This document shows, one piece after another, positions 320 through 39,699 of a stretch of DNA of 39,699 nucleotides (the first letter of the stretch is position 1; each line of letters opens with the position of its first letter). This DNA is from a virus. Lineage: Duplodnaviria > Caudoviricetes. The notes under the pieces were generated by a model. The model saw only the letters and a program-made list of their open reading frames with translations, did not search any database and was not told the origin of the DNA. The stretch is taken from positions 1 through 39,699 of the IMG/VR virus record IMGVR_UViG_3300028072_000012; one strand, 5' to 3'. Position numbers and translations under genes: made by a program.

Positions 320-393
320 GGGTGACGACTCAGCCGGTTGAAGAGGCGGTCCTGATAAGACCGTAGTGCAAGGTTCAACTCCTTGGTCACCTA
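320..393 (+). tRNA. tRNA-Ile(GAT)
   Basis: GGGTGAC/GTCACCT acceptor; CGGTC-CTGATAA-GACCG; CAAGG-TTCAACT-CCTTG. Confidence 0.88.
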
Positions 394-433
394 CGTGAAA
401 TTCAGTGCAGTTGATAAGGGAAGCAGGAGAAGC

Positions 434-649
434 ATGTCAGACTGGGAAACAACTCTTCTGGAGCCAGTCGTGGATAAGCCGGGTACTGAACTTGCAGTGA
501 TACCGAAGGAGCTGCCACGTGGACGCCATCGACGCCCAAAGCCTCCACGAGCTAGCGCAGCTCACCTTGCCGGAGCACGATACCGTGACCTGCTGGTGCT
601 GCTGTCTCGACTGCGACTTCAACTACCAGGAAGTCATGGCGGAAAGTAA
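434..649 (+). CDS. hypothetical protein (71 aa)
   Basis: ATG after AGGAG RBS; stop overlaps next ATG (TAATG). Confidence 0.55.
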   Translation: MSDWETTLLEPVVDKPGTELAVIPKELPRGRHRRPKPPRASAAHLAGARYRDLLVLLSRLRLQLPGSHGGK

Positions 650-813
650 TGCGCGCAGACGGCTCATGCAGTGAATGCGGGTGCACCTGGCCGCCCTGCG
701 CAGCCAAAGGGCATTGCGTCAGTCCGCTCATGTTCCGCTGGTGGATGATCCGGCATCCTCATGAGTACCGTAAGGCAAGAACGATAATCAGAGAGGGGTA
801 TGACAGTGAGTAA
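649..813 (+). CDS. small Cys-rich hypothetical protein (54 aa)
   Basis: Manual translation MRADGSCSECGCTWPPCAAKGHC...; coupled to upstream ORF. Confidence 0.5.
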   Translation: MRADGSCSECGCTWPPCAAKGHCVSPLMFRWWMIRHPHEYRKARTIIREGYDSE

Positions 814-832
814 ACACAGCGGGAAACTTCAT

Positions 833-906
833 GCCCCGCTAGCACAATCGGTCACTGCAGCGTCCTTTTAAGTCGCGGATTCCCGGTTCGAATCCGGGGC
901 GGGGCA
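833..906 (+). tRNA. tRNA-Lys(TTT)
   Basis: GCCCCGC/GCGGGGC acceptor; loop CTTTTAA; GGTTCGAATCC. Confidence 0.9.
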
Positions 907-925
907 CCCTTTATAATCCTCAACC

Positions 926-1060
926 ATGAATCCTCCCCAGCCGCCGCCTCCCCCGCAGCCGGATGACTGCCCGCGCTGCCAGGGAGCCGGTGCTGTCATC
1001 ATCAACGACAGGCCAGTTCAATGCCCCGCATGTCACGGCAGCGGGAAGAAAAACAAATAA
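926..1060 (+). CDS. DnaJ-type zinc-finger microprotein (44 aa)
   Basis: MNPPQPPPPPQPDDCPRCQGAGAVIINDRPVQCPACHGSGKKNK has two CxxCxGxG motifs; TATAAT at 912-917. Confidence 0.7.
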   Translation: MNPPQPPPPPQPDDCPRCQGAGAVIINDRPVQCPACHGSGKKNK

Positions 1061-1133
1061 GCATCACTAGCTCAAAGGATAGAGCGGCCGGCTTCTACCC
1101 GGCGGGTTAGGGGTTCGAGTCCTCTGTGATGCA
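1061..1133 (+). tRNA. tRNA-Arg(TCT)
   Basis: GCATCAC/GTGATGC; GCCGG-CTTCTAC-CCGGC; GTTCGAGTC. Confidence 0.92.
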
Positions 1134-1180
1134 CAGCATGCCCGTCCTTTTCCAGGGAGGTTGGGGGCGGGCATGCCCTA

Positions 1181-1252
1181 GGCCCCATCGTCTATGGGTT
1201 AGGATCGGAGGTTTTCACCCTCCGGAATGGAGTCCGAGTCTCCATGGGGTCA
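1181..1252 (+). tRNA. tRNA-Glu(TTC)
   Basis: GGCCCCA/TGGGGTC; GGAGG-TTTTCAC-CCTCC; T-loop variant TCCGAGT. Confidence 0.85.
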
Positions 1253-1253
1253 C

Positions 1254-1640
1254 ATGACACATATAAGAAACGACAAGACAGCCCGGGTCATCCCCGGGTT
1301 CAAGAAATCCGTTAACGAAAGCACCGGCGTCACGCACGTGTCCGCGTTCATGTGCCGGCACAGCGACAAGACCACCGCAGACGCCGACAGCGTACTGAAC
1401 GAGGCGAAAGAACAGCTCAGCGCAACCGACGCCACCCTGCTCAGCAAGGTGGTCTACCGGCTCAACTTCGAGTACGAAGCTGAGATCAGCAGCATCGCAT
1501 GCGACCAGTGGGCTATGGTCAGCGCGGAAACCTACGATCACAAGTTCAAGGTGACCGTCCAGTGCGACAGCGTGGAAGACGGCATCGCAGCAGTATGGAA
1601 GGCGTTCAAGGATCATGGTGCACCCGTCCCGGATGAGTGA
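1254..1640 (+). CDS. hypothetical protein
   Basis: ORF starting just after tRNA-Glu; overlaps next start; the ORF-track start at 1227 lies inside the tRNA. Confidence 0.7.
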   Translation: MTHIRNDKTARVIPGFKKSVNESTGVTHVSAFMCRHSDKTTADADSVLNEAKEQLSATDATLLSKVVYRLNFEYEAEISSIACDQWAMVSAETYDHKFKVTVQCDSVEDGIAAVWKAFKDHGAPVPDE

Positions 1641-1977
1641 CGAAGAGTACGTTAACTGGATCAACACCATGCCGGCAGCGGAGGAACGGATCAGCGCGGT
1701 CATGCGGGAATCCAGGTTCATCACCAGCTGGTTCCCGGCATACTCATCGGGGGCCGGGGACCTGATAGAGCAGATGCTGAAAGACCTGAAGAGGGAATGG
1801 CTCACCACGATCCGGAACTACCTGGAAGACCGGGAACTCCTCGCAGACAAGGATCTTCAGGAAAGCCTCCGGCAGATGCGTGACAGAATGTACGGTGCTG
1901 CCCTGGCATTCACTGAGCAGGAAGTCAGCGACGCTGCTGATGTCATGCGGTCAGCAGAAGACAGCGAGCCGGCATAG
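1633..1977 (+). CDS. hypothetical protein (helical)
   Basis: ATG overlaps the 3' end of the upstream ORF; protein-like composition. Confidence 0.7.
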   Translation: MSDEEYVNWINTMPAAEERISAVMRESRFITSWFPAYSSGAGDLIEQMLKDLKREWLTTIRNYLEDRELLADKDLQESLRQMRDRMYGAALAFTEQEVSDAADVMRSAEDSEPA

Positions 1978-2040
1978 CTTAGCGGTCAAAGCACCCCGCT
2001 CATAACGGGGAGACGCCTGGGTCAGCACCAGGTGCCGGTA
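1968..2040 (+). tRNA. tRNA-Met/Ile2(CAT), elongator type, atypical T-loop
   Basis: GCCGGCA/TGCCGGT; CCCCG-CTCATAA-CGGGG; CCTGG-GTCAGCA-CCAGG. Confidence 0.8.
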
Positions 2041-2055
2041 CGGAAAGGAAACCTG

Positions 2056-2241
2056 ATGGCATCGTGTGATCACGCGTGGGGTCCGTGGAACAGCTGGACC
2101 CAGACCTGCAACCAGTCACGCAGCCGTGTCTGCAATAAGTGCGGTGACTTCGACTACGACTACCAGACTGTGCATCAGTGGGGCACCTCTGAGGAAAATC
2201 CGAGGAAGATAACCTGCCAGCGCTGCGGTCAGTCCAGGTGA
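2056..2241 (+). CDS. small Cys-rich (CxxC) protein
   Basis: ATG after AAGGA RBS; CNKC and CQRC motifs, HxWG repeated. Confidence 0.65.
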   Translation: MASCDHAWGPWNSWTQTCNQSRSRVCNKCGDFDYDYQTVHQWGTSEENPRKITCQRCGQSR

Positions 2242-2245
2242 ACAC

Positions 2246-2319
2246 GGGCCAGTAACTCAGCTGGTAAGAGTGGCATCCTTATAAGGTGCTGGTCGTGCGT
2301 TCAAGCCGCACCTGGCCCA
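2246..2319 (+). tRNA. tRNA-Ile(TAT)
   Basis: GGGCCAG/CTGGCCC; GCATC-CTTATAA-GGTGC; GTGCG-TTCAAGC-CGCAC. Confidence 0.88.
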
Positions 2320-2333
2320 CTGAAGAAAGAAAG

Positions 2334-2699
2334 ATGATGAAGTTCAACATCGCACAGCTTGTGCACGGCAAGGACGGCAGCGCCGTCCTCATCGAAGAAG
2401 TTGCTCTCCGTGATTACCTGATGGAGTACGTGGTCGGTGACAACCTGTTCGGGTTGCTGAACTGGGTTCACCGGGACTGGATGTACAGTGTCCGCTGGGG
2501 ACCGGAAGATCCCGAGTTCGGGTTCGCGGAGAAGTCCCTCGGCGCGAAGCTGTTCAGCCTCGCCCAGTGGACCGCCGGCGGGTTCGGCGCGTACCGTAAG
2601 GCACGGCGGGTGGCGCAGTTCCCGGTGTCGTATGAGTGGGTGCGGGAGCACATGCCGGATGCCGGGTGGCCGTGGGACGGCACAGACGACAACGAATAA
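2334..2699 (+). CDS. hypothetical protein
   Basis: ATG after purine-rich RBS; GC3-rich codons. Confidence 0.7.
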   Translation: MMKFNIAQLVHGKDGSAVLIEEVALRDYLMEYVVGDNLFGLLNWVHRDWMYSVRWGPEDPEFGFAEKSLGAKLFSLAQWTAGGFGAYRKARRVAQFPVSYEWVREHMPDAGWPWDGTDDNE

Positions 2700-2703
2700 A
2701 AGG

Positions 2704-2731
2704 TTGACAACCAGCAGGATGCTGGTATGAT
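2704..2731 (+). promoter_or_regulatory. sigma70/SigA-type promoter
   Basis: TTGACA-16 nt-TATGAT with extended TG, upstream of tRNA-fMet. Confidence 0.75.
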
Positions 2732-2748
2732 TATGGGTGTAACAACGT

Positions 2749-2822
2749 AGCGGAGTAGAGCAGTTCGGTAGCTCGTCGGGCTCATAACCCGGAGGCCCCA
2801 GGTTCAAATCCTGGCTCCGCCA
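2749..2822 (+). tRNA. initiator tRNA-fMet(CAT)
   Basis: 1:72 mismatch (A:C), GGG/CCC anticodon stem, CTCATAA loop, GGTTCAAATCC. Confidence 0.9.
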
Positions 2823-2872
2823 CTAGGACTCCCGGGTAACCCATAGGGTGCCTACACCGGGAGTCCGATCAG

Positions 2873-2946
2873 TCTCCACTAGCTCAATTGGCAGATGCGT
2901 CCGGCTGTTAACCGGAAGGTTCCAGGTCCGAGTCCTGGGTGGAGAG
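2873..2946 (+). tRNA. tRNA-Asn(GTT)
   Basis: TCTCCAC/GTGGAGA; TCCGG-CTGTTAA-CCGGA. Confidence 0.9.
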
Positions 2947-3084
2947 CGGCAGCCGCTCACAGGTGAGTTGCCCTGGAACGTTTCCCCACCCCCTAGAAGG
3001 CGTTCCGTCCCTGTGTGCGCACTCCGAACTGCCCAGCGCCCGCCTGGCCGGCTGCCAGCGGGCACACAGATAGGATGCTGATAC

Positions 3085-3216
3085 ATGAAAGTGAAATGGC
3101 TGGTGATCGCGCTGATCGTGCTGTTCATCCTCATGGCACCTCAGGATGCAACGAACGCTGTGCACAGTCTCGTAAAGTTCTTCCAGGGAGTGTTCAGCGG
3201 AATGAACCTGCACTAA
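3085..3216 (+). CDS. small membrane protein (43 aa)
   Basis: MKVKWLVIALIVLFILMAPQDATNAVHSLVKFFQGVFSGMNLH, hydrophobic N-terminal helix. Confidence 0.55.
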   Translation: MKVKWLVIALIVLFILMAPQDATNAVHSLVKFFQGVFSGMNLH

Positions 3217-3224
3217 CAGACCAA

Positions 3225-3298
3225 GGTCCATTAGCTCAGTTGGTCAGAGCGCCGCCCTGTCACGGCGGAGGCCGCCGGTTCGAGCCCGGTATGGGCCG
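3225..3298 (+). tRNA. tRNA-Asp(GTC)
   Basis: CCGCC-CTGTCAC-GGCGG; canonical D and T arms. Confidence 0.93.
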
Positions 3299-3323
3299 CA
3301 AGTTCAGGTGATACGATGTCGCT

Positions 3324-3914
3324 ATGCCGATGCCGACACCGGAGCTGCAACGCGAGTATGCGCGTCAGTGGATGGCCGCCAGACGGGCGGCCTGGTTTGA
3401 AGGCAAAATCTGTGAAGAATGCGGGTCCACGAAGAATCTGGAACTAGATCACCGTGACCCGACGATGAAAGTAACGCACCGTGTCTGGTCATGGAGGAAG
3501 GAAAGACGAGAAGCGGAACTAGCAAAATGCCGGACACTATGCCAGGAATGCCACAAACTGAAGTCAGCTGGTGAGCACGCCAAAGGTTCACGTAATGGCT
3601 GCGCCAAGCTCACCGAAGAAGAAGCAAGACAAATAAGAGAATCGGTAGAACCTAGCCGGACGCTGAGCATTCGCTACGGAATCGGAATGCGCACAGTACA
3701 GCACATCCGGAAGGGCGATACTTGGTCACACATTGGGACGTTAGCACAACGGTCAGTGCACCACCCTGTCACGGTGGAAGGTGCCGGTTCGAATCCGACA
3801 CGTCTCGCGCAGAACAAGCTAGGCGGCGTAGCCTGCCCGTCTCCGGTAACCGGGCCTGATCTCCCTCGAAGTGCCGGGGATATGACCGCCGCACCCATAG
3901 AAGAGAGAAGATGA
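3324..3914 (+). CDS. HNH endonuclease with C-terminal HTH-like DNA-binding segment
   Basis: CEECGS-x-LELDH...CRTLCQECH motif, then KLTEEEARQIR...W-x-H; TACGAT 6 nt before ATG suggests leaderless mRNA. Confidence 0.85.
   Translation: MPMPTPELQREYARQWMAARRAAWFEGKICEECGSTKNLELDHRDPTMKVTHRVWSWRKERREAELAKCRTLCQECHKLKSAGEHAKGSRNGCAKLTEEEARQIRESVEPSRTLSIRYGIGMRTVQHIRKGDTWSHIGTLAQRSVHHPVTVEGAGSNPTRLAQNKLGGVACPSPVTGPDLPRSAGDMTAAPIEERR
3735..3807 (+). tRNA. tRNA-Asp(GTC), second copy, inside the HNH ORF
   Basis: GGGACGT/ACGTCTC; CCACC-CTGTCAC-GGTGG; GGTTCGAATCC. Confidence 0.85.
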
Positions 3915-4303
3915 TAACCGTGGGACCCTCAGGGCCGGCACCCTTCCAGCCCCTGTCCAGCTTTGCCGCGCACCCGCTGTCGTTCGACAGCCTGATGCTC
4001 ACCCATGAGGATCTCGCTGACATCATCGCCGGGATGAACGAACTGGAACTTTCCAGGTTCATGGAAATACTCGCGCTCAAGCTCGGCGCATCCAGTGACA
4101 CCCTGATGCTGCGACTGGAAGATCCCGGGGACAAGAAGATCGCGGTGATCAAGGAGATCCGTGACGCAACCGGCGTCAAGCTGATCGACGCGAAAAACAT
4201 GACGAACAGTGCACCTGTGAACATCCTGGCCGGTCCTGCCTGGCGGGTACGAGACGTGGCCGCACGACTGCGCCAGGCAGGCGCAACAGTTACAGTGAAC
4301 TAA
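3911..4303 (+). CDS. rplL: ribosomal protein bL12 (L7/L12) homolog
   Basis: C-terminal GDKKIAVIKEIRDATGVKLIDAKNM..AP..I....A..L..AGATV; N-terminal LTHEDLADIIAGMNELELS resembles the dimerisation helix; start may be 3995. Confidence 0.85.
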   Translation: MITVGPSGPAPFQPLSSFAAHPLSFDSLMLTHEDLADIIAGMNELELSRFMEILALKLGASSDTLMLRLEDPGDKKIAVIKEIRDATGVKLIDAKNMTNSAPVNILAGPAWRVRDVAARLRQAGATVTVN

Positions 4304-4310
4304 CTATCAC

Positions 4311-4382
4311 GGGCGTGTAGCTCAGCGGGAGAGCAGCTGCATGACGCGCAGAAGATCCCAGGTTCAATCCCTGGTACGCCCA
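4311..4382 (+). tRNA. tRNA-Val(GAC)
   Basis: GGGCGTG/TACGCCC; CTGC-ATGACGC-GCAG; GGTTCAATCC. Confidence 0.87.
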
Positions 4383-4442
4383 CAGGACCGGCATAACAGC
4401 CGCAGGTCCACACCTTTATCCTGGTGTGCCGGTCCCGCCAAC

Positions 4443-4517
4443 GGCCTTGCAGAGCAGCCTGGAGTGCTCGTCTGCCTCTCAAGCAGGAGATCGCCGGTTC
4501 GAATCCGGTCAAGGCTA
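4443..4517 (+). tRNA. tRNA-Glu(CTC)
   Basis: GGCCTTG/CAAGGCT; loop CTCTCAA; GGTTCGAATCC. Confidence 0.9.
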
Positions 4518-4621
4518 CGCGTCAGTCCGGGAAAAGAGAGGCAGCAGCCCTGCCGTTGCCTGCACGGCGGTCGCAAAGCAGGACAACCTGAGAGGTTCCC
4601 CGGTCAGCCGTCTCAGGACCA

Positions 4622-4694
4622 GCGCCCATAGCTCAGCGGATAGAGCAGCGGCCTACGGAGCCGCGTGTCGGGAGTTCAAGTCTCTCTGGGCGTA
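4622..4694 (+). tRNA. tRNA-Arg(ACG)
   Basis: GCGCCCA/TGGGCGT; GCGGC-CTACGGA-GCCGC. Confidence 0.92.
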
Positions 4695-4710
4695 CGTGAA
4701 AGAGGAAAGA

Positions 4711-5226
4711 ATGAGGATCAGCCCCGGTGATCTCGGCTGGATGGCAGCCATCATCGACGCTAAAGGCGCAGTCATCCGGAAACACAACGCCAAACGGAGA
4801 ACACCGCAGATCGTTCTCCGGGTGGACACCAAAGACCGTCGCATCGCCCGCCGGCTGAGTCTCCTCACCGGCACCAGCCCGGAAATCAAGGAAGCCATGG
4901 GCCCGTCGGACTTCCTCCGCCGTGGCTGCAAGGAACACTGCCCGGAATCCCACATCCACGTCGATCAGGAACCCTCCTGGCAGATGCCCGAAACCACCAG
5001 GTGGGCCATCACCGGCGCAGCCGCAGCAGTGATCCTCATGAACCTCGCCCCGTACATGATCACCTACCAGGATTACGAAGGTGACGTGAACCTGGCACTG
5101 ATGAACCTGGTCACCTCCGGGCAAGGTTCCGGCATGGTCCGATCGTCAGTGAACCGTCTCGCTGATCTCGGCTGGCAGATCCCCCGGAAAATAGAACTGA
5201 AACTCAGATTGACGAGCACCCCATGA
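4711..5226 (+). CDS. LAGLIDADG-like protein (possibly degenerate homing endonuclease)
   Basis: N-terminal DLGWMAAIIDAKGAV resembles the LAGLIDADG helix; ATG after GAGGAAAG. Confidence 0.6.
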   Translation: MRISPGDLGWMAAIIDAKGAVIRKHNAKRRTPQIVLRVDTKDRRIARRLSLLTGTSPEIKEAMGPSDFLRRGCKEHCPESHIHVDQEPSWQMPETTRWAITGAAAAVILMNLAPYMITYQDYEGDVNLALMNLVTSGQGSGMVRSSVNRLADLGWQIPRKIELKLRLTSTP

Positions 5227-5441
5227 CAACATGGAGAGACATCCTCCCCGAGGATGCGATACACATCGACTGCCGGGAACACCCCGAACTTGACCCGCCC
5301 CAGAATGAGGCAGGCGAACCATGCCCATGGCCGTGGGACCCCCAGCAGCTTGCCGGGGCACCCCTCGGGCAGTATCATTGCGGGTTCTGCGGTGCGATGG
5401 TCGTCGCGGGACTCCCCCACATCGACTACAGAGACGAGTAA
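5223..5441 (+). CDS. hypothetical zinc-binding protein
   Basis: ATGA overlap; YHCGFCG motif. Confidence 0.7.
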   Translation: MTTWRDILPEDAIHIDCREHPELDPPQNEAGEPCPWPWDPQQLAGAPLGQYHCGFCGAMVVAGLPHIDYRDE

Positions 5442-5447
5442 CACTAA

Positions 5448-5521
5448 GGCCGGTTAGCTCAACCTGGCGGAGCAACGCTTTCACACAGCGGAGGTTCAGA
5501 GTTCAAATCTCTGGCCGGCCA
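5448..5521 (+). tRNA. tRNA-Val(CAC)
   Basis: GGCCGGT/GCCGGCC; CGCT-TTCACAC-AGCG; CAGAG-TTCAAAT-CTCTG. Confidence 0.87.
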
Positions 5522-5675
5522 CGCGTAGTAGAGGTACTGTCACTGTAACTGTCGCACCACTGGGGTACCTCCGGGGCGATCCCGGGGGACGTGATGAACG
5601 CACCAATCCCCCTAGGCTAGAACTGGAACAGGCCAGCGGTCCACCCGTCCCCCCGACGGGAATCTGCTGGCGCAT

Positions 5676-5750
5676 GGCGGATATAGCTCAATGGGAGAGC
5701 GCTGGACTGTGGCTCCAGACATACGAGTTCGATCCTCGTTATTCGCCCCA
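5676..5750 (+). tRNA. tRNA-His(GTG) with G-1 and encoded CCA
   Basis: CTGGA-CTGTGGC-TCCAG; G-1:C73; ends CCCA. Confidence 0.92.
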
Positions 5751-5761
5751 AGTATTGACTA

Positions 5762-5841
5762 GCCAGAGTTGAGCAATCGGTCGCTCAGCGCCCTGTAAAG
5801 GCGTGGCTTCGGCAGTGGGGGTTCGAATCCCTCCTCTGGCA
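5762..5841 (+). tRNA. tRNA-Tyr(GTA)
   Basis: GCCAGAG/CTCTGGC; loop CTGTAAA; variable arm; GGTTCGAATCC. Confidence 0.9.
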
Positions 5842-5842
5842 C

Positions 5843-6079
5843 GTGGGTAAATACGCAACCCGCAATGGCGGGTATCAGATAGTAACCGTCCCTCTAGAAT
5901 TGCCGGAAGTGCCTGGTAGCCCCGGCGGCGTAGTTGAACGTTCCCTTGACGCCGGGTTCTATGCGGCGGTGTACATAAATCAGGGCAGTAGTGCTCCGAT
6001 AGGTGTCGGATACGGAGAAACTGAAACCGCCGCTGTCCGCGCAGCACTCAGCAACGCCGACGTGCGCTTCCAGGGATGA
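5843..6079 (+). CDS. hypothetical protein
   Basis: ORF filling the gap after tRNA-Tyr; start uncertain. Confidence 0.45.
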   Translation: MGKYATRNGGYQIVTVPLELPEVPGSPGGVVERSLDAGFYAAVYINQGSSAPIGVGYGETETAAVRAALSNADVRFQG

Positions 6080-6145
6080 ACTGCGTCGCGTATGCTACCC
6101 AGGTTCAAGTCCTGGTCCCGGCACAAAAAGAAAAGGAGAAACACA

Positions 6146-6334
6146 ATGAAGACAGCAGCAGTCATCCTCATGACCATCGGTCTCGCAGGACTGTTCCTCC
6201 TCGGCTACGCCTGGATGACCAGTGACAGCTCCTTCGAACCCCGCAAGCCCGCCGACAAGCCGAAAATCCGCCGTCGGGTAACAGCCATGCTGATGCTCTG
6301 CGTAATGACCGGCGCAGCATATGCAGGAGCCTGA
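6146..6334 (+). CDS. small membrane protein
   Basis: AAGGAG RBS; two hydrophobic segments. Confidence 0.7.
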   Translation: MKTAAVILMTIGLAGLFLLGYAWMTSDSSFEPRKPADKPKIRRRVTAMLMLCVMTGAAYAGA

Positions 6335-6482
6335 CAACATAGACGACCTGATCAACGCCTGGCACAATGGTGCTGGCGGTAACCAGGAACTCTGGCAGTA
6401 CCTCGGCTGGACCTGGAAACAGTACAAAACATGGGTAGAGACCGGGAAAATCTCTCCAGTAGAAATCAGTAAAGAACAGTAG
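6321..6482 (+). CDS. hypothetical phage protein (53 aa)
   Basis: Manual translation MQEPDNIDDLINAWHNG...LWQYLGWTWKQYKTWVETG; fills the gap between flanking ORFs. Confidence 0.65.
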   Translation: MQEPDNIDDLINAWHNGAGGNQELWQYLGWTWKQYKTWVETGKISPVEISKEQ

Positions 6483-6501
6483 AGAGTAAAGGAGGGGGAC
6501 A

Positions 6502-6843
6502 ATGATCACCATCACCCGGGCGGTACAGACCTGCATGGCCTGCCCCTCCCAATGGAACCTGTGGAGCGACAACGGCGACTACTACTACGCCCGCTACCGG
6601 CACGGCTGCGGTGAACTCCGCCAATACAAAACCGAACACTGGTACCACAAAGACGAAGACGAATTCATCGCCGACATCGCCGAGTTCTACCACGGCGACC
6701 CGCTCGACGGCATGATCAGCCTGGAAGAATTCGCGCAGCTCGCCGGCATCACCATCGCCCCCGACGCCATGATCACCGGATACGGGGACCATCTCCGCGA
6801 TGAGATGATCACCAGCGGGTTCACCGGACTGCTCGATGAGTAA
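6502..6843 (+). CDS. hypothetical phage protein
   Basis: AAGGAGG RBS; TCxACPSQW...YARYRHG motif. Confidence 0.8.
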   Translation: MITITRAVQTCMACPSQWNLWSDNGDYYYARYRHGCGELRQYKTEHWYHKDEDEFIADIAEFYHGDPLDGMISLEEFAQLAGITIAPDAMITGYGDHLRDEMITSGFTGLLDE

Positions 6844-7039
6844 CTGGGCATACGCGAGTACCCGACGAGGCACGGTGATCATCATGAATGAAGATGAGCG
6901 TGTCCTGTTCGAAGACTTCATCAGCACTGACAGTCTTCTGGCATCAGCGGAAATAGCGTTCGCGTCAGCCGGCTGGACCCGTCAGGGTGACTGGGAACAG
7001 CTTGCCAGCGGATGGCAGACTGAAGTAAAGCGCACCTGA
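6836..7039 (+). CDS. hypothetical protein
   Basis: Overlapping start with upstream ORF. Confidence 0.6.
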   Translation: MSNWAYASTRRGTVIIMNEDERVLFEDFISTDSLLASAEIAFASAGWTRQGDWEQLASGWQTEVKRT

Positions 7040-7048
7040 CGGCCTGTT

Positions 7049-7121
7049 GCTTCCGAAGTAGACCGGACGATACGCCAGCCTCCGGAGCTGGAGACAGCAG
7101 GTTCGACTCCTGCCGGGAGCA
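7049..7121 (+). tRNA. tRNA-Arg(CCG)
   Basis: GCTTCCG/CGGGAGC; CCAGC-CTCCGGA-GCTGG; GCAGG-TTCGACT-CCTGC. Confidence 0.87.
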
Positions 7122-7145
7122 CCCACAAGAAAAGAGAAGAGAGAA

Positions 7146-7511
7146 ATGAAACGCATCACCGGCGCGATCATCGCAGCCGCCATAGCATGCCTGGCCATGG
7201 CCGGCTGCTCCACCACCAACCATGACAGCGGCAACCCCACCTACGACATCGTGCTCCACTGGTGGCGCGTCGAAACACCCCCGTCAGTCGTGACCGAGTT
7301 CTTCGCCTGCTTCGACACCACCGGCCTGTGGCTCGACCAGGCTGACGGCAACATCTCCACCACCCCAAACGACCCTATGTGCCCCAAGAACGGCCAGCCG
7401 TACAGACTAGTCAAGAGAAGCGGCACGGACCCCGCAGTCGACGTTGGCGGGTTCCGTATCGTCCCCCCTGACAAGACCGGCCTTTACCAGACAGTCAACG
7501 GAAGAGTCTGA
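7146..7511 (+). CDS. lipoprotein
   Basis: MKR + hydrophobic helix + lipobox (LAMAG-C). Confidence 0.8.
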   Translation: MKRITGAIIAAAIACLAMAGCSTTNHDSGNPTYDIVLHWWRVETPPSVVTEFFACFDTTGLWLDQADGNISTTPNDPMCPKNGQPYRLVKRSGTDPAVDVGGFRIVPPDKTGLYQTVNGRV

Positions 7512-7635
7512 GGAGACAGATGAGAGCACCGCACGATATCCTCTGTGATAAAAAGTGCCGCTGCCGGGCCTGCCTGGACGGCAACTGCTCAATGTGCGCC
7601 CACGGAGGCCACTAACCTTGCCTGACACGATCCCG

Positions 7636-7764
7636 ATGACCTGCCTGCACTGCGGAAGCCCCAAGCTCAAGGTGCACTGCCCTAACGTGCAGTGCACCTG
7701 GCTGCGATGCGACGCATGCGGCAAGCTGACCCGGGTACAGGACATCCCTGCCCCCGGAACATGA
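7636..7764 (+). CDS. zinc-finger microprotein
   Basis: CLHC, CPNVQC and CDAC in 42 aa; start uncertain. Confidence 0.5.
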   Translation: MTCLHCGSPKLKVHCPNVQCTWLRCDACGKLTRVQDIPAPGT

Positions 7765-7834
7765 CGGTATGGCCGAGAGGCTCAGGCGCACGCCTGCAAA
7801 GCGTGATACACCAGTTCGATTCTGGTTACCGTCT
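7763..7834 (+). tRNA. tRNA-Cys(GCA)
   Basis: GACGGTA/TACCGTC; CACGC-CTGCAAA-GCGTG; U73. Confidence 0.92.
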
Positions 7835-7908
7835 CGGAGCCCCCGCCACCCGGACATCCTCCACCCCGTTTAAGGGATGTGCCGTTGCGAGGCGGGGGCT
7901 TCCCCTAT

Positions 7909-7977
7909 GCTCCTGATACCGGATGTATTCCGGCTCCTCCTAAGAGCTGGTCCCAGGTCCGACTCCTGGCAGGAGCA
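7909..7977 (+). tRNA. tRNA-Arg(CCT), short atypical D-arm
   Basis: GCTCCTG/CAGGAGC; GCTC-CTCCTAA-GAGC; CCAGG-TCCGACT-CCTGG. Confidence 0.72.
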
Positions 7978-8001
7978 CCCCCGCTAGCGTTGACGAAAGA
8001 C

Positions 8002-8030
8002 TTGACGTTGACGTATGGCGGGTATATAAT
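8002..8030 (+). promoter_or_regulatory. near-consensus sigma70/SigA promoter of the RAMP-like operon
   Basis: TTGACG(8002-8007)-17 nt-TATAAT(8025-8030); extra TTGACG copies at 7990 and 8008. Confidence 0.85.
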
Positions 8031-8084: not shown

Positions 8085-8813
8085 ATGACAACCACCGCCC
8101 GCACAGCGGCGGCCCGCCCCGGACCCGACAACCCGGTCAACCCGATCCTTGTCGTCTCCCGCATCCCCACCACCACGATGTACGTGCCCATCATCGGCAC
8201 ATCACCCCTCATCGTGAGCAAGTTCAGCACCAAAGCCAAGCAGCAGATGCTTGACGCCCAGCAGGGACGCAAGTCCCCCAAGAAGCTCCGCGACCCCGAG
8301 CGCGAGTACCTCGACAGCATGTACACCGGCCTTGACGGCACCGGCAAGCAGCTCTACGGCTTCCCCGTCACCGGCTTCAAGGCAGCCACCGTGTCCGCCG
8401 CCCGCTTCTACGGCAAGGACGTCAAGATGACCGAGCTGCGCCAGTTCATCTTCATGAAGGGCCGCTTCTTCCCCGAGGAAGGCCAGCAGCTCGCCGTGGT
8501 CAACGGAACCCCGCACATCCGCGAGGACTACGTGCGCCTCGCCGGCGCAGGCCGCCCCGCTGACCTCCGCTACCGTGCCGAGTTCACCGACTGGAGCACA
8601 GTCCTGGAAGTCACCTACGTCAGCTCACTGCTGTCGAAGGAATCCGTCCTGTCCCTCATCGACGCCGGCGGTTTCGGTGTCGGCGTAGGCGAATGGCGTC
8701 CCGAGCACCGGGGCGAGTTCGGCACCTACACCATCGATGAGAGCCGCGACTCCGAGCAGGCCAAGGCGTGGATCGACGCACTGGAAGCCGCCGACAAGGT
8801 GACCGTCAAGTGA
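8085..8813 (+). CDS. stand-alone RAMP/Cas7-like RNA-binding protein (putative effector of the GGY-NN arrays)
   Basis: RAMP-like motifs in order: IIGTSPLIV, YGFPVTGFKAA, thumb-like REDYVRL...LRYRAEF, C-terminal Gly-rich loop AGGFGVGVGEWRPEHRGEFGTY; AAGGA RBS. Confidence 0.75.
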   Translation: MTTTARTAAARPGPDNPVNPILVVSRIPTTTMYVPIIGTSPLIVSKFSTKAKQQMLDAQQGRKSPKKLRDPEREYLDSMYTGLDGTGKQLYGFPVTGFKAATVSAARFYGKDVKMTELRQFIFMKGRFFPEEGQQLAVVNGTPHIREDYVRLAGAGRPADLRYRAEFTDWSTVLEVTYVSSLLSKESVLSLIDAGGFGVGVGEWRPEHRGEFGTYTIDESRDSEQAKAWIDALEAADKVTVK

Positions 8814-9265
8814 GCGAGCCCACCGAGAAGATCAGCAACCTTCGCGATGAGCTGCTGCGGATCAGGGCAGAGTACGGCGAGCTGACGGCGGAGACGATCG
8901 TCGCCGCAGCCACCTCCGAGTCCAGCGCGATCCATAGTCAGTTCGAGTGGGATGACTCGGAAGCAGCCCACCAGTACCGTCTCAACCAGGCGCGGCGGCT
9001 GGTCAAGATCGTCAAGGAGCCGTATGTGCGGCCGACTGGCGAGCAGGGCAAGGTCCGGTTTTTCCACGCGACCCAGGACGACAATCGGACGGTTTACAAC
9101 CCTTTGTCCGAAATCGTTCAGGACCCGATCGCCTCGCAAATCCTGCTGAGGCAGGCGGAGCGCGAGTGGCGGGCACTGTGGGCAAGATACCAGCACCTGT
9201 CCGAATTCGTGGACATCGTGCGGGGTGTCGTCCAGGTGACTGAGCCGACCGATGAGGCCGACTAA
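8810..9265 (+). CDS. phage protein coupled to the RAMP-like gene (putative accessory factor)
   Basis: GTGA start/stop overlap; motif IHSQFEWDDSEAAHQYRLNQARRLV. Confidence 0.8.
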   Translation: MSEPTEKISNLRDELLRIRAEYGELTAETIVAAATSESSAIHSQFEWDDSEAAHQYRLNQARRLVKIVKEPYVRPTGEQGKVRFFHATQDDNRTVYNPLSEIVQDPIASQILLRQAEREWRALWARYQHLSEFVDIVRGVVQVTEPTDEAD

Positions 9266-9283
9266 GTCAAGTAGATCAGAGAG

Positions 9284-9313
9284 GAGGGGGATGACCTTCA
9301 GGTTGTCCCCCTC
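9284..9313 (+). other. hairpin leader upstream of array 1
   Basis: GAGGGGGATGACC-TTCA-GGTTGTCCCCCTC, 13-bp stem with 2 G:U pairs. Confidence 0.8.
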
Positions 9314-9323
9314 TCATCTCTCA

Positions 9324-10272
9324 GGTACGGCAGGTACGGCTCGGCGTGATAGCGCGGGGTCTGGCTAGGTACGGCGTGGTCGGGTCCGGTTCGGTTCGGC
9401 AGGTGTGGTAACGCTGGGTGAGGTCAGTCAGGGTAAGTCAAGGTACGGCAGGTAAGGCAAGGATTGGCCCGGAGGGTTCAGGTCAGGCACGGCAGGTCAG
9501 GTGCGGCTGGGCATGGTGCGGCTGGGCGCGGCAAGGTCCGGTACGGCAGGTAAGGCTGGGCAAGGTCAGTCAGGGTAGGTCAAGGTACGGCAGGTGAAGC
9601 AAGGCGAGGTATGGAAGGGTAATGCGAGGTCTGGTCCGGCAGGTTAGGCTCGGCAGGGTGTGGTCAGGACAGGTCGGGTACGGCAGGTGCGGCTCGGACA
9701 GGTCTGGCAAGGTGCGGCTAGGTGTGGCGTGGCAGGTAAGGCGGGGCGGGTTTTCGCGTGGTAGTGCATGGTTAGGTGCGGCAGGTCAGGCAAGGCGGTG
9801 CGGGGTATCGCTTGGCAGGGCAGGGCAGGCATGGTGCGGTTACGCAGGGTACGGCGCGGCATGGCAGGCAAGGCAAGGCCCGGTTCGGTCGGGTGAGGTC
9901 CGGCAACGCAGGCGTGGTTTCGTCGGGTTCGGCAGGTCTGGCACGGCATGGTGAGGTGCGGTACGGCGTCGTACGGTCTGGCTGGGTACGGCAGGTGAGG
10001 CGTGGCATCGTGACGTCAGGAATGGCTTCGCACGGCAGGTGAGGCTTGTCCAGGAATGGTCAGGAATGGTTAGGCGCGGCAGGCACGGTACGGCGCGGCA
10101 CAGTACGGCAGGGCACGGCAGGGCAGGCAAGGCACGGCTTGGACTGGTTTCGCAAGTTGATGTCCGGCAACGCAGGTATGGCTTCGTTAGGTCCGGCACA
10201 GTAATGCTGGGTTTGGCATGGCAGGCACGGCATGGCTCGGTGAGGCCGGGTATGGTCACGTACGGCCGGTAA
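9324..10272 (+). repeat. Array 1: 20 units of (GGY-NN)4-13 + GGCA delimiter; putative guide-RNA array
   Basis: Manual parse 9333-10267: 171 pentamers in perfect phase; unit lengths 69,49,44,54,44,49,44,49,49,44,39,44,24,59,44,44,44,49,49,44 (all 5n+4). Confidence 0.95.
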
Positions 10273-11464: not shown

Positions 11465-11542
11465 GGTACGGTGACGCAGGTATGGCATGGCAAGTTCCGT
11501 CCAGGCACGGCTAGGTGCGGTAGGGTGTGGCCGGTTCGGTGG
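11465..11542 (+). repeat. Array 2: single orphan GGY-NN unit (10 pentamers)
   Basis: GGTAC GGTGA CGCA, 10 pentamers at 11479-11528, then GGCC; intergenic, antisense to lysis genes. Confidence 0.85.
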
Positions 11543-36927: not shown

Positions 36928-37000
36928 GGTACGGCAGGTTTGGCATGGCTGGGTTCGATAAGGTTGGGCGAGGTCGGGTGCTGTCAGGTAAGGCAGGTTC
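36928..37000 (+). repeat. Array 3: single orphan GGY-NN unit (11 pentamers)
   Basis: GGTAC GGCA, 11 pentamers at 36937-36991, then GGCA GGTTC; intergenic, antisense to structural genes. Confidence 0.9.
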
Positions 37001-39321: not shown

Positions 39322-39448
39322 GTTTCGTCTGATCAGGCCACCGTCCGGGCGGTTTCCGGTCCCCATTGTTGAGGGTCACGGCCGGGTAAGGGCACTCATG
39401 ATCCCAGGGGCCTGGGGGAGGTGCACCTGCCGCCCGGACGGTCTCAAA

Positions 39449-39699
39449 GGTACGGCAGGTAAGGCGAGGCAGGGTCTGTTATGGCTGGGTTCGGCAGGTA
39501 AGGTGTGGCACGGCTTGGCTTGGTACGGCAATGCAGGTTAGGTGAGGTCTGGCCTGGTGCGGTTCTGCATCGTATGGTCGGGCAGGTATGGCGCGGATCG
39601 GCATGTCACCGCAAGGTGTGGTTTGGCAGGTATGGCACGTCACGGCACGGCACAGCATGGTGTGGCACGGCAGGTTAGGCCGGGCGAGGTGAGGCGGGG
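39449..39699 (+). repeat. Array 4: GGY-NN array, 5 complete units plus 1 truncated by the window end
   Basis: GGTAC GGCA start; units of 39,39,49,44,44 nt from 39458, delimiters GGCA/TGCA. Confidence 0.93.

What the first reader, a model, noticed from the sequence alone, without database searches (positions are those of the whole stretch)
9333..10267. Strict two-level grammar of the array: 5-nt phase with 4-nt punctuation and variable dinucleotides
Seen (hand parse): 171 pentamers with no indel inside any unit. 132 triplets are GGT/GGC and all 39 others differ by one base (CGY, GTY, GGA, TGY, AGY, GAT). Delimiters are GGCA x17, CGCA x2 and a terminal GGCC; modal size is 8-9 pentamers. Example NN strings: u1 AC TC GT AG GG CT TA AC GT CG CC TC TC; u6 GA AA GA AT AG AA GA CT CC; u9 AA GG GG TT GT AG AT TA GC; u19 AT TT TA CC AC AA TG TT AT. 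Inference: conserved scaffold with hypervariable NN indicates stored information, not a decaying satellite; GGCA likely marks processing sites.
Basis: partly seen in the sequence, partly recalled or inferred. Interest (0 to 1): 0.92.

Follow-up and report, generated by a model that had tools for sequence, protein, structure and literature searches.

The report
Staggered VIPR guide array in actinophage
This patterned repeat lies directly behind a Vipr gene in a soil phage and is likely a 20-guide RNA array of the recently described VIPR system, predicted to silence rival phages' genes through a gapped base-pairing code; it is a new example of a published system, not a new system.

Summary
The gene upstream (8085-8813) matches the solved SUSP1 Vipr protein (E 1e-4), folds like Cas7 and keeps the GGY-binding residues; a Vap-like gene follows. 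This is a VIPR system (bioRxiv 10.64898/2026.04.26.720920). The GGCA punctuation fits that paper's 'staggered array' (1-nt overlap), which it did not confirm by RNA sequencing. The same grammar occurs in 97 of 123 related loci and five cultured actinophages. Beyond the paper's text: GGCA also precedes the first unit in 61 of 128 arrays, so it behaves like a 5' boundary signal. Unit 1, read with the 1-nt skip, matches the phage's own vap gene (20/26, codon phase) and relatives' Vap better (11/13 residues), suggesting an anti-VIPR guide. No perfect target was found for any window guide, and no RNA data were available. Three more guide cassettes lie elsewhere in the window. Verdict: new member of a known kind; interest 0.3.

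The parts
8002..8030 (+). sigma70-type promoter-like site (11 of 12 consensus bases) in front of vipr
   Evidence: 1 found against 0.3 in shuffles
8085..8813 (+). vipr gene, 242 aa, RAMP/Cas7-like guide-binding protein
   Evidence: start at 8085 follows an AAGGA ribosome site and equals database protein P0001
8810..9265 (+). vap gene, 151 aa, predicted winged-helix-like domain plus long C-terminal helix; start overlaps the vipr stop
   Evidence: phrog_15946; Z 5-6 only; 117 of 123 loci hold both genes
9077..9114 (+). site in vap matched by unit 1 under the 1-nt skip rule, 20 of 26 bases, skips on third codon positions
9278..9321 (+). predicted hairpin in front of the array
   Evidence: -34.4 kcal/mol, z -4.2, 0 of 200 shuffles as stable
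9324..9332 (+). leader: one pentamer plus GGCA junction
9333..10267 (+). array A: 20 GGY/NN units (putative vrRNAs) separated by 4-nt junctions
   Evidence: identical in L018 and L019
10274..10320 (.). predicted hairpin closing the array, also terminator-like for the converging holin gene
   Evidence: (z -5.3)
11465..11542 (+). cassette B: one 10-pentamer unit (11479-11528) between a CGCA and a GGCC junction, followed by a hairpin
36928..36999 (+). cassette C: one 11-pentamer unit (36937-36991) between two GGCA junctions, followed by a hairpin
39449..39699 (+). array D: leader, five complete units and one cut by the contig end

Best explanation
The array lies directly behind a vipr-vap gene pair in a tailed phage and is likely a multi-guide vrRNA array of a VIPR system: it would be transcribed with those genes and cut at the 4-nt junctions into about 20 short guides, each predicted to be coated by one Vipr subunit per GGY/NN repeat and to silence a DNA target of competing phages by pairing its NN dinucleotides with a one-base skip. 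Shown here: array grammar, gene identities and fold, conservation of the grammar across relatives. Taken from the published system: filament assembly, 1-nt skip, transcriptional repression. Inferred here: co-transcription, cutting at the junction (a one-base slip of the 5-nt register would break the filament and expose the RNA), and unit 1 being aimed at the vap gene of a related phage.
For: Vipr: only PDB sequence hit is SUSP1 Vipr, E 1.1e-4; model pLDDT 82.7 matches Cas7/Csm3-type chains, best E 2.5e-5; SUSP1 GGY-binding residues R138, D177, W178, R179 align to R164, E203, W204, R205, invariant in 50 of 50 sequences. Locus layout vipr-vap-array as in the paper. 658 of 699 junctions in related arrays are 4 nt, 402 are GGCA. 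GGCA plus the next G is a full pentamer sharing one base with the next unit, which fits the '1 nt overlapping' staggered arrays. Unit 1 matches vap 20/26 at skip 1 against 17/26 at skips 0 and 2; 7 of 2000 order-shuffles reach 20 in the window, 5 of 20000 in the operon; the match spans the unit from junction to junction; relatives P0123 and P0125 fit 11 of 13 residues against 9 of 13 for the phage's own Vap. Clade-wide, 5 of 438 guides hit vipr/vap genes in codon phase at E<0.02, against 1 and 0 in the other phases and 0-3 in each of 25 shuffled sets; three shown in detail fit foreign genes better than their own (18 vs 15, 18 vs 15, 17 vs 13 of 20).
Against: No perfect or near-perfect target for any window guide: six viral scans gave 0, 13, 12, 0, 12 and 28 core hits, none extending over the full guide; unit 1 had 0 hits with 3 mismatches in 401 sampled genomes; two guides of cultured relatives were near chance in 92 Gordonia genomes (5 vs 0 and 4 vs 4 control hits). 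All 575 guides against 1.7 Mb of loci showed no clear excess at skip 1, and a coarser test found 8 guides beating all 40 shuffles where about 14 were expected. The unit 1 match is about p 0.09 window-wide after correcting for 26 guides. Units (mode 8-9) are shorter than the 9-16 repeats of tested vrRNAs and lack their structured tail.
Confidence: 0.9

Rival explanations
1. Same VIPR system, but the array is not cut: one long RNA carries successive Vipr filaments and the 4-nt junction only resets the register (or marks where new units are inserted).
For: No nuclease, ribozyme or per-unit hairpin at junctions: Rfam finds only tRNAs at gathering level; junction and unit folds are not more stable than shuffles in 3 of 4 tested, one borderline; strong hairpins bracket the whole array.
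Against: GGCA stands directly before the first full unit in 61 of 128 arrays and single-unit cassettes B and C are bracketed by junctions, as expected of an end-defining signal; the paper draws these arrays as processed units.
Confidence: 0.2
2. Unit 1 is an autoregulatory guide: its partial match to the phage's own vap dampens the vipr-vap operon, rather than attacking a rival's vap.
For: The best DNA match among 213 vipr/vap genes in hand is the phage's own vap (20/26); unit 1 is the unit nearest the operon.
Against: Six mismatches; close relatives' Vap fit better at protein level; in L003, L102 and L036 foreign genes beat the own gene; lower self than non-self scores are reported for anti-VIPR guides.
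Confidence: 0.2
3. A decaying 5-nt satellite, or a coding repeat, with no guide function.
For: Open frames of about 100-140 codons cross the array on both strands; units 2 and 5 are duplicates (14 of 16 NN bases, above all 200 shuffles).
Against: Variation is confined to positions 4-5; 4-nt junctions break any reading frame; the grammar is kept beside vipr genes down to 35% identity.
Confidence: 0.02

Closest known systems
VIPR systems with staggered vrRNA arrays (bioRxiv 10.64898/2026.04.26.720920, Fig. S18)
   Same: vipr + vap + GGY/NN array in a phage; neighbouring units offset by one base
   Different: No difference established: I could read only the legend, not the figure or data files, so I cannot say whether this clade or the GGCA motif is the one drawn. 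This phage has at least 28 units in four places.
Type II VIPR of phage SUSP1 and the P. fulva prophage (PDB 36pp; bioRxiv 10.64898/2026.04.26.720927)
   Same: Homologous Vipr with the same G-loop and thumb residues; GGY/NN code; Vap with a predicted DNA-binding fold
   Different: SUSP1 has four ~100-nt vrRNAs, each with a structured 3' tail; here units are 24-69 nt, tail-less and abut each other. SUSP1 itself was not among the 34 phage records hit by tblastn.
Anti-VIPR and solo vrRNAs (bioRxiv 10.64898/2026.10.15.759431)
   Same: Guides aimed at rival vipr genes, with lower self than non-self match; stand-alone guide cassettes
   Different: Those are in VIPR-null enterophages and satellites; here stand-alone cassettes lie in a VIPR-positive phage and the matched site is in vap.
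Class 1 CRISPR-Cas (Cas7 backbone)
   Same: RAMP fold that coats a guide RNA; many guides in one array
   Different: No direct repeats or spacers, no cas genes seen in the window; gapped rather than contiguous pairing.

Membership tests
VIPR | RAMP-fold Vipr protein with G-loop and thumb, outside a CRISPR locus | tested here: met
   no CRISPR-type repeat
VIPR | GGY-binding residues (SUSP1 R138, D177, W178, R179) | tested here: met
   R164, E203, W204, R205 invariant in 50 of 50; D is replaced by E
VIPR | minimal locus with an adjacent vap gene | tested here: met
   8810-9265; both genes in 117 of 123 loci
VIPR | Vap with a predicted DNA-interacting fold | tested here: inconclusive
   no Foldseek hit at E<=0.001; many winged-helix chains at Z 5-5.9 over residues 1-102, which is a middling score
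VIPR | tandem GGY/NN pentamers with hypervariable NN | tested here: met
   units of 4-13 repeats, shorter than the 9-16 quoted
VIPR | phage or prophage location | tested here: met
   tape measure, neck, holin, endolysin hits; virus record
VIPR | DNA targets by the 1-nt skip rule, skip on the wobble base | tested here: inconclusive
   supported for unit 1 and a few clade guides; no full-length target for any window guide
VIPR | vrRNA expressed and bound by Vipr; repression of targets | not testable with these tools
   needs RNA data or experiments
VIPR, staggered-array form | adjacent vrRNAs overlap by 1 nt | tested here: met
   every junction is 4 nt, i.e. a pentamer sharing its last G with the next unit; compared with the legend only
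VIPR type II (SUSP1-like) | invariant structured 3' tail on each vrRNA | tested here: not met
   units abut with 4-nt junctions; hairpins only at array ends
VIPR types I-VII | placement in the published Vipr phylogeny and vap1-6 classes | not testable with these tools
   the paper's data files and figure images were not available; only legends

The most novel reading that the evidence does not exclude
GGCA is a dedicated 5' processing signal of tail-less vrRNAs, read by Vipr itself at the one-base register slip, so that this clade matures a CRISPR-like multi-guide array with a single RAMP protein; and its operon-proximal guides are recurrently aimed at rival vipr/vap genes, including vap, in an arms race between VIPR-bearing actinophages that can be studied in cultured Gordonia and Mycobacterium smegmatis phages.
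Probability: 0.25. Interest if true: 0.65.

Novelty: new member of a known kind. Interest (0 to 1): 0.3.

Why it matters
VIPR is proposed as the ancestor of Class 1 CRISPR effectors, and how its staggered arrays are matured was left untested in the discovery paper. This locus gives a large, very regular example (at least 28 units), shows that the junction motif also marks first units, and points to cultured phages (Gordonia phages Pipp, UmaThurman, Ecliptus, ODay; Mycobacterium phage Saal, one of 27 Mycobacterium phage records with the Vipr relative) in which processing and targeting can be tested. It does not add a new mechanism.

Tried and rejected
Self-targets: none above 82% at skips 0-3. 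Target scans in viral contigs with cores of units 1, 4, 9, 14, B and C: hits at about chance level, none extending to the whole guide. Unit 9 read antisense resembles an adenine-methyltransferase NPPF motif (motif name recalled) and 4 of 12 hits were in long ORFs with that peptide, but none matched fully; unproven. A degenerate pattern of the vap site in metagenome contigs found only this phage (L017-L019). Contigs of four low-share runs did not cover the vap site. No RNA holder listed. Strain comparison was uninformative: array identical in L018, L019 and in the covered parts of four runs. Codon-phase composition test favoured positions 1-2 (21 of 26 guides) but was no better than a uniform model, so confounded by GC; dropped. 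Apparent paralogy of units 9 and 10 is only at the 95th percentile of shuffles; 15/16 and 12/18 not supported. Guides of five cultured phages had no match above chance among those five regions. Pfam: no family for Vipr, none significant for Vap. L018/L019 could not be extended to read the rest of array D. No earlier scan notes on this genome. In some searches units A20, B and D1 each carried one extra dinucleotide from the adjoining junction; A20 and B were corrected and D1 is below its length cut.

Full report
Observation. An automatic parse gives 20 units between 9333 and 10267, 171 pentamers, 132 with GGT/GGC and 39 one base away, no indel inside units, and junctions GGCA x17, CGCA x2 and a terminal GGCC. 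Entropy is low at pentamer positions 1-3 (0.70, 0.32, 1.24 bits) and near maximal at 4-5 (1.91, 1.97). The motif count is 100 against at most 15 in 1000 shuffles. A one-pentamer leader with its own GGCA precedes unit 1. Predicted hairpins bracket the array (z -4.2 and -5.3), and a near-consensus promoter lies at 8002-8030.

Surroundings. The window is part of a tailed phage (tape measure, neck, holin, endolysin) with 19 tRNA genes, held in soil metagenome runs. Its host is inferred to be an actinomycete, because the closest named Vipr relatives are in Rhodococcus, Nocardia, Streptomyces, Microbacterium and Gordonia records. The gene at 8085-8813 has one hit among PDB sequences, the SUSP1 Vipr protein (E 1.1e-4). 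Its model (pLDDT 82.7) matches Cas7/Csm3-type subunits (best E 2.5e-5, TM about 0.4). The SUSP1 residues that grip GGY (R138, D177, W178, R179) align to R164, E203, W204, R205, invariant in 50 of 50 aligned sequences. The next gene (8810-9265) travels with it: 117 of 123 loci hold both. Its model resembles winged-helix domains only weakly (no Foldseek hit at E<=0.001; Z 5-5.9).

What is known. I read the whole text of bioRxiv 10.64898/2026.04.26.720920 without figure images and term-searched its PMC supplement PDF; its data files were not seen and may bear on type assignment and on whether the GGCA motif is described. I read parts 1-2 of 6 of 10.64898/2026.04.26.720927, part 1 of 8 plus passages of 10.64898/2026.10.15.759431 and passages of 10.64898/2026.10.21.760802. 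VIPR systems are vipr + vap + vrRNAs of GGY/NN repeats whose NN pair with DNA with a one-base skip, usually on the wobble base, and repress transcription of rival phages. The paper lists staggered arrays whose vrRNAs overlap by 1 nt; only the ribozyme and single-vrRNA forms were confirmed by RNA sequencing. Three searches found four VIPR papers and none besides the first with the word 'staggered' in a VIPR context; 'GGCA' was not found in the supplement text or in the competition paper.

Relatives. Of 123 loci (window included; three copies of this phage left out), 97 had an array by my detector. 658 of 699 junctions are 4 nt and 402 are GGCA; internal units peak at 9-10 pentamers; mid-unit NN entropy is 3.96 of 4 bits. 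That parser gave GG-starting 4-nt junctions a small bonus; an unbiased one showed the same picture in 15 of 16 loci with an array and in five cultured phages. L006 and L007 use a different 4-nt junction (TCNN). GGCA lies directly before the first long unit in 61 of 128 arrays, against 0.8% background per position, and the window's single-unit cassettes B and C have a junction on both sides. This suggests the junction defines guide ends and is not just a by-product of overlap (inference). The array is unchanged in two other assemblies of this phage, so turnover between strains could not be seen; units 2 and 5 are duplicates that diverged.

Targets. Unit 1 read with the 1-nt skip matches the phage's own vap at 9077-9114 in 20 of 26 bases with all skips on third codon positions (17 at skips 0 and 2; 7 of 2000 shuffles reach 20 in the window, 5 of 20000 in the operon). 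In the clade, 5 of 438 guides of 9 or more repeats hit vipr/vap genes in codon phase at E<0.02, against 1 and 0 in the other phases and 0-3 in each of 25 shuffled sets; those of L003, L102 and L036 fit foreign vipr genes better than their own. This is modest support for the code and for anti-VIPR guides, which are already reported. Against: a coarser version of the test showed no excess (8 vs about 14); 575 guides against 1.7 Mb showed no clear skip-1 excess; six viral scans, one metagenome scan and three genome searches found no full target. Exact-match scans with 16-18 fixed bases are insensitive, so this is absence of proof rather than disproof.

Mechanism. Most likely the operon transcript or an array transcript is cut at the junctions into about 20 guides of roughly 44-49 nt; Vipr coats each, one subunit per pentamer, and the complex with Vap represses matching genes of competing phages. 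Identity of the parts is shown; filament, skip rule and repression follow from the published system; co-transcription, cutting and the aim of unit 1 are inferred. Rivals are an uncut RNA (0.2), autoregulation by unit 1 (0.2, concerning that unit only) and a satellite (0.02).

Verdict. A real and striking feature, already explained: a new member of VIPR with a staggered array, not type II by its lack of tails; type unassigned. Interest 0.3. The open, testable part is how tail-less staggered arrays are matured, for which cultured Gordonia and M. smegmatis phages with the same layout are available.

Noticed in passing
window 11465-11542, 36928-36999, 39449-39699 (+): Three more guide cassettes away from vipr, on the strand opposite the virion and lysis genes for B and C; all start with the same short leader as array A; B and C end in long hairpins; D is cut by the contig end.
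   Followed up: partly
window 39322-39448 (+): A long-range stem enclosing about 90 nt of branched predicted structure (-65 kcal/mol) directly before array D; no Rfam match.
   Followed up: partly
window 9288-9307 and L102:4334: A 7-repeat unit of L102 matches the hairpin between vap and the array 14 of 14 at skip 1 (E about 0.04 for that guide alone); may be chance.
   Followed up: no
runs X10 and X12, laid on window 9531-9595 and 10112-10140: A separate contig of similar depth carries another array sharing 65 nt with the unit 4-5 region (7 differences); either the unseen rest of array D or a related phage.
   Followed up: no
L006:5012-5738, L007:5317-6043 and 6652-7859: Arrays with a different 4-nt junction (TCNN after GGCYG/GGCAG) in place of GGCA.
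   Followed up: no
L191-L195 (Gordonia phages Pipp, Ecliptus, UmaThurman, ODay; Mycobacterium phage Saal): vipr and vap are annotated as hypothetical proteins and, in Pipp and UmaThurman, the array is annotated as a hypothetical gene; 27 Mycobacterium phage records carry the Vipr relative.
   Followed up: partly
window 320-7980 (+): Cluster of 19 predicted tRNA genes interspersed with small ORFs and an HNH gene, ending just before the vipr promoter; L018 and L019 differ from the window around 1119-1179.
   Followed up: no
L001:7047 against L061:8456: A 7-repeat unit matches 14 of 14 a site whose antisense reading is a Walker A-like peptide (motif name recalled).
   Followed up: no
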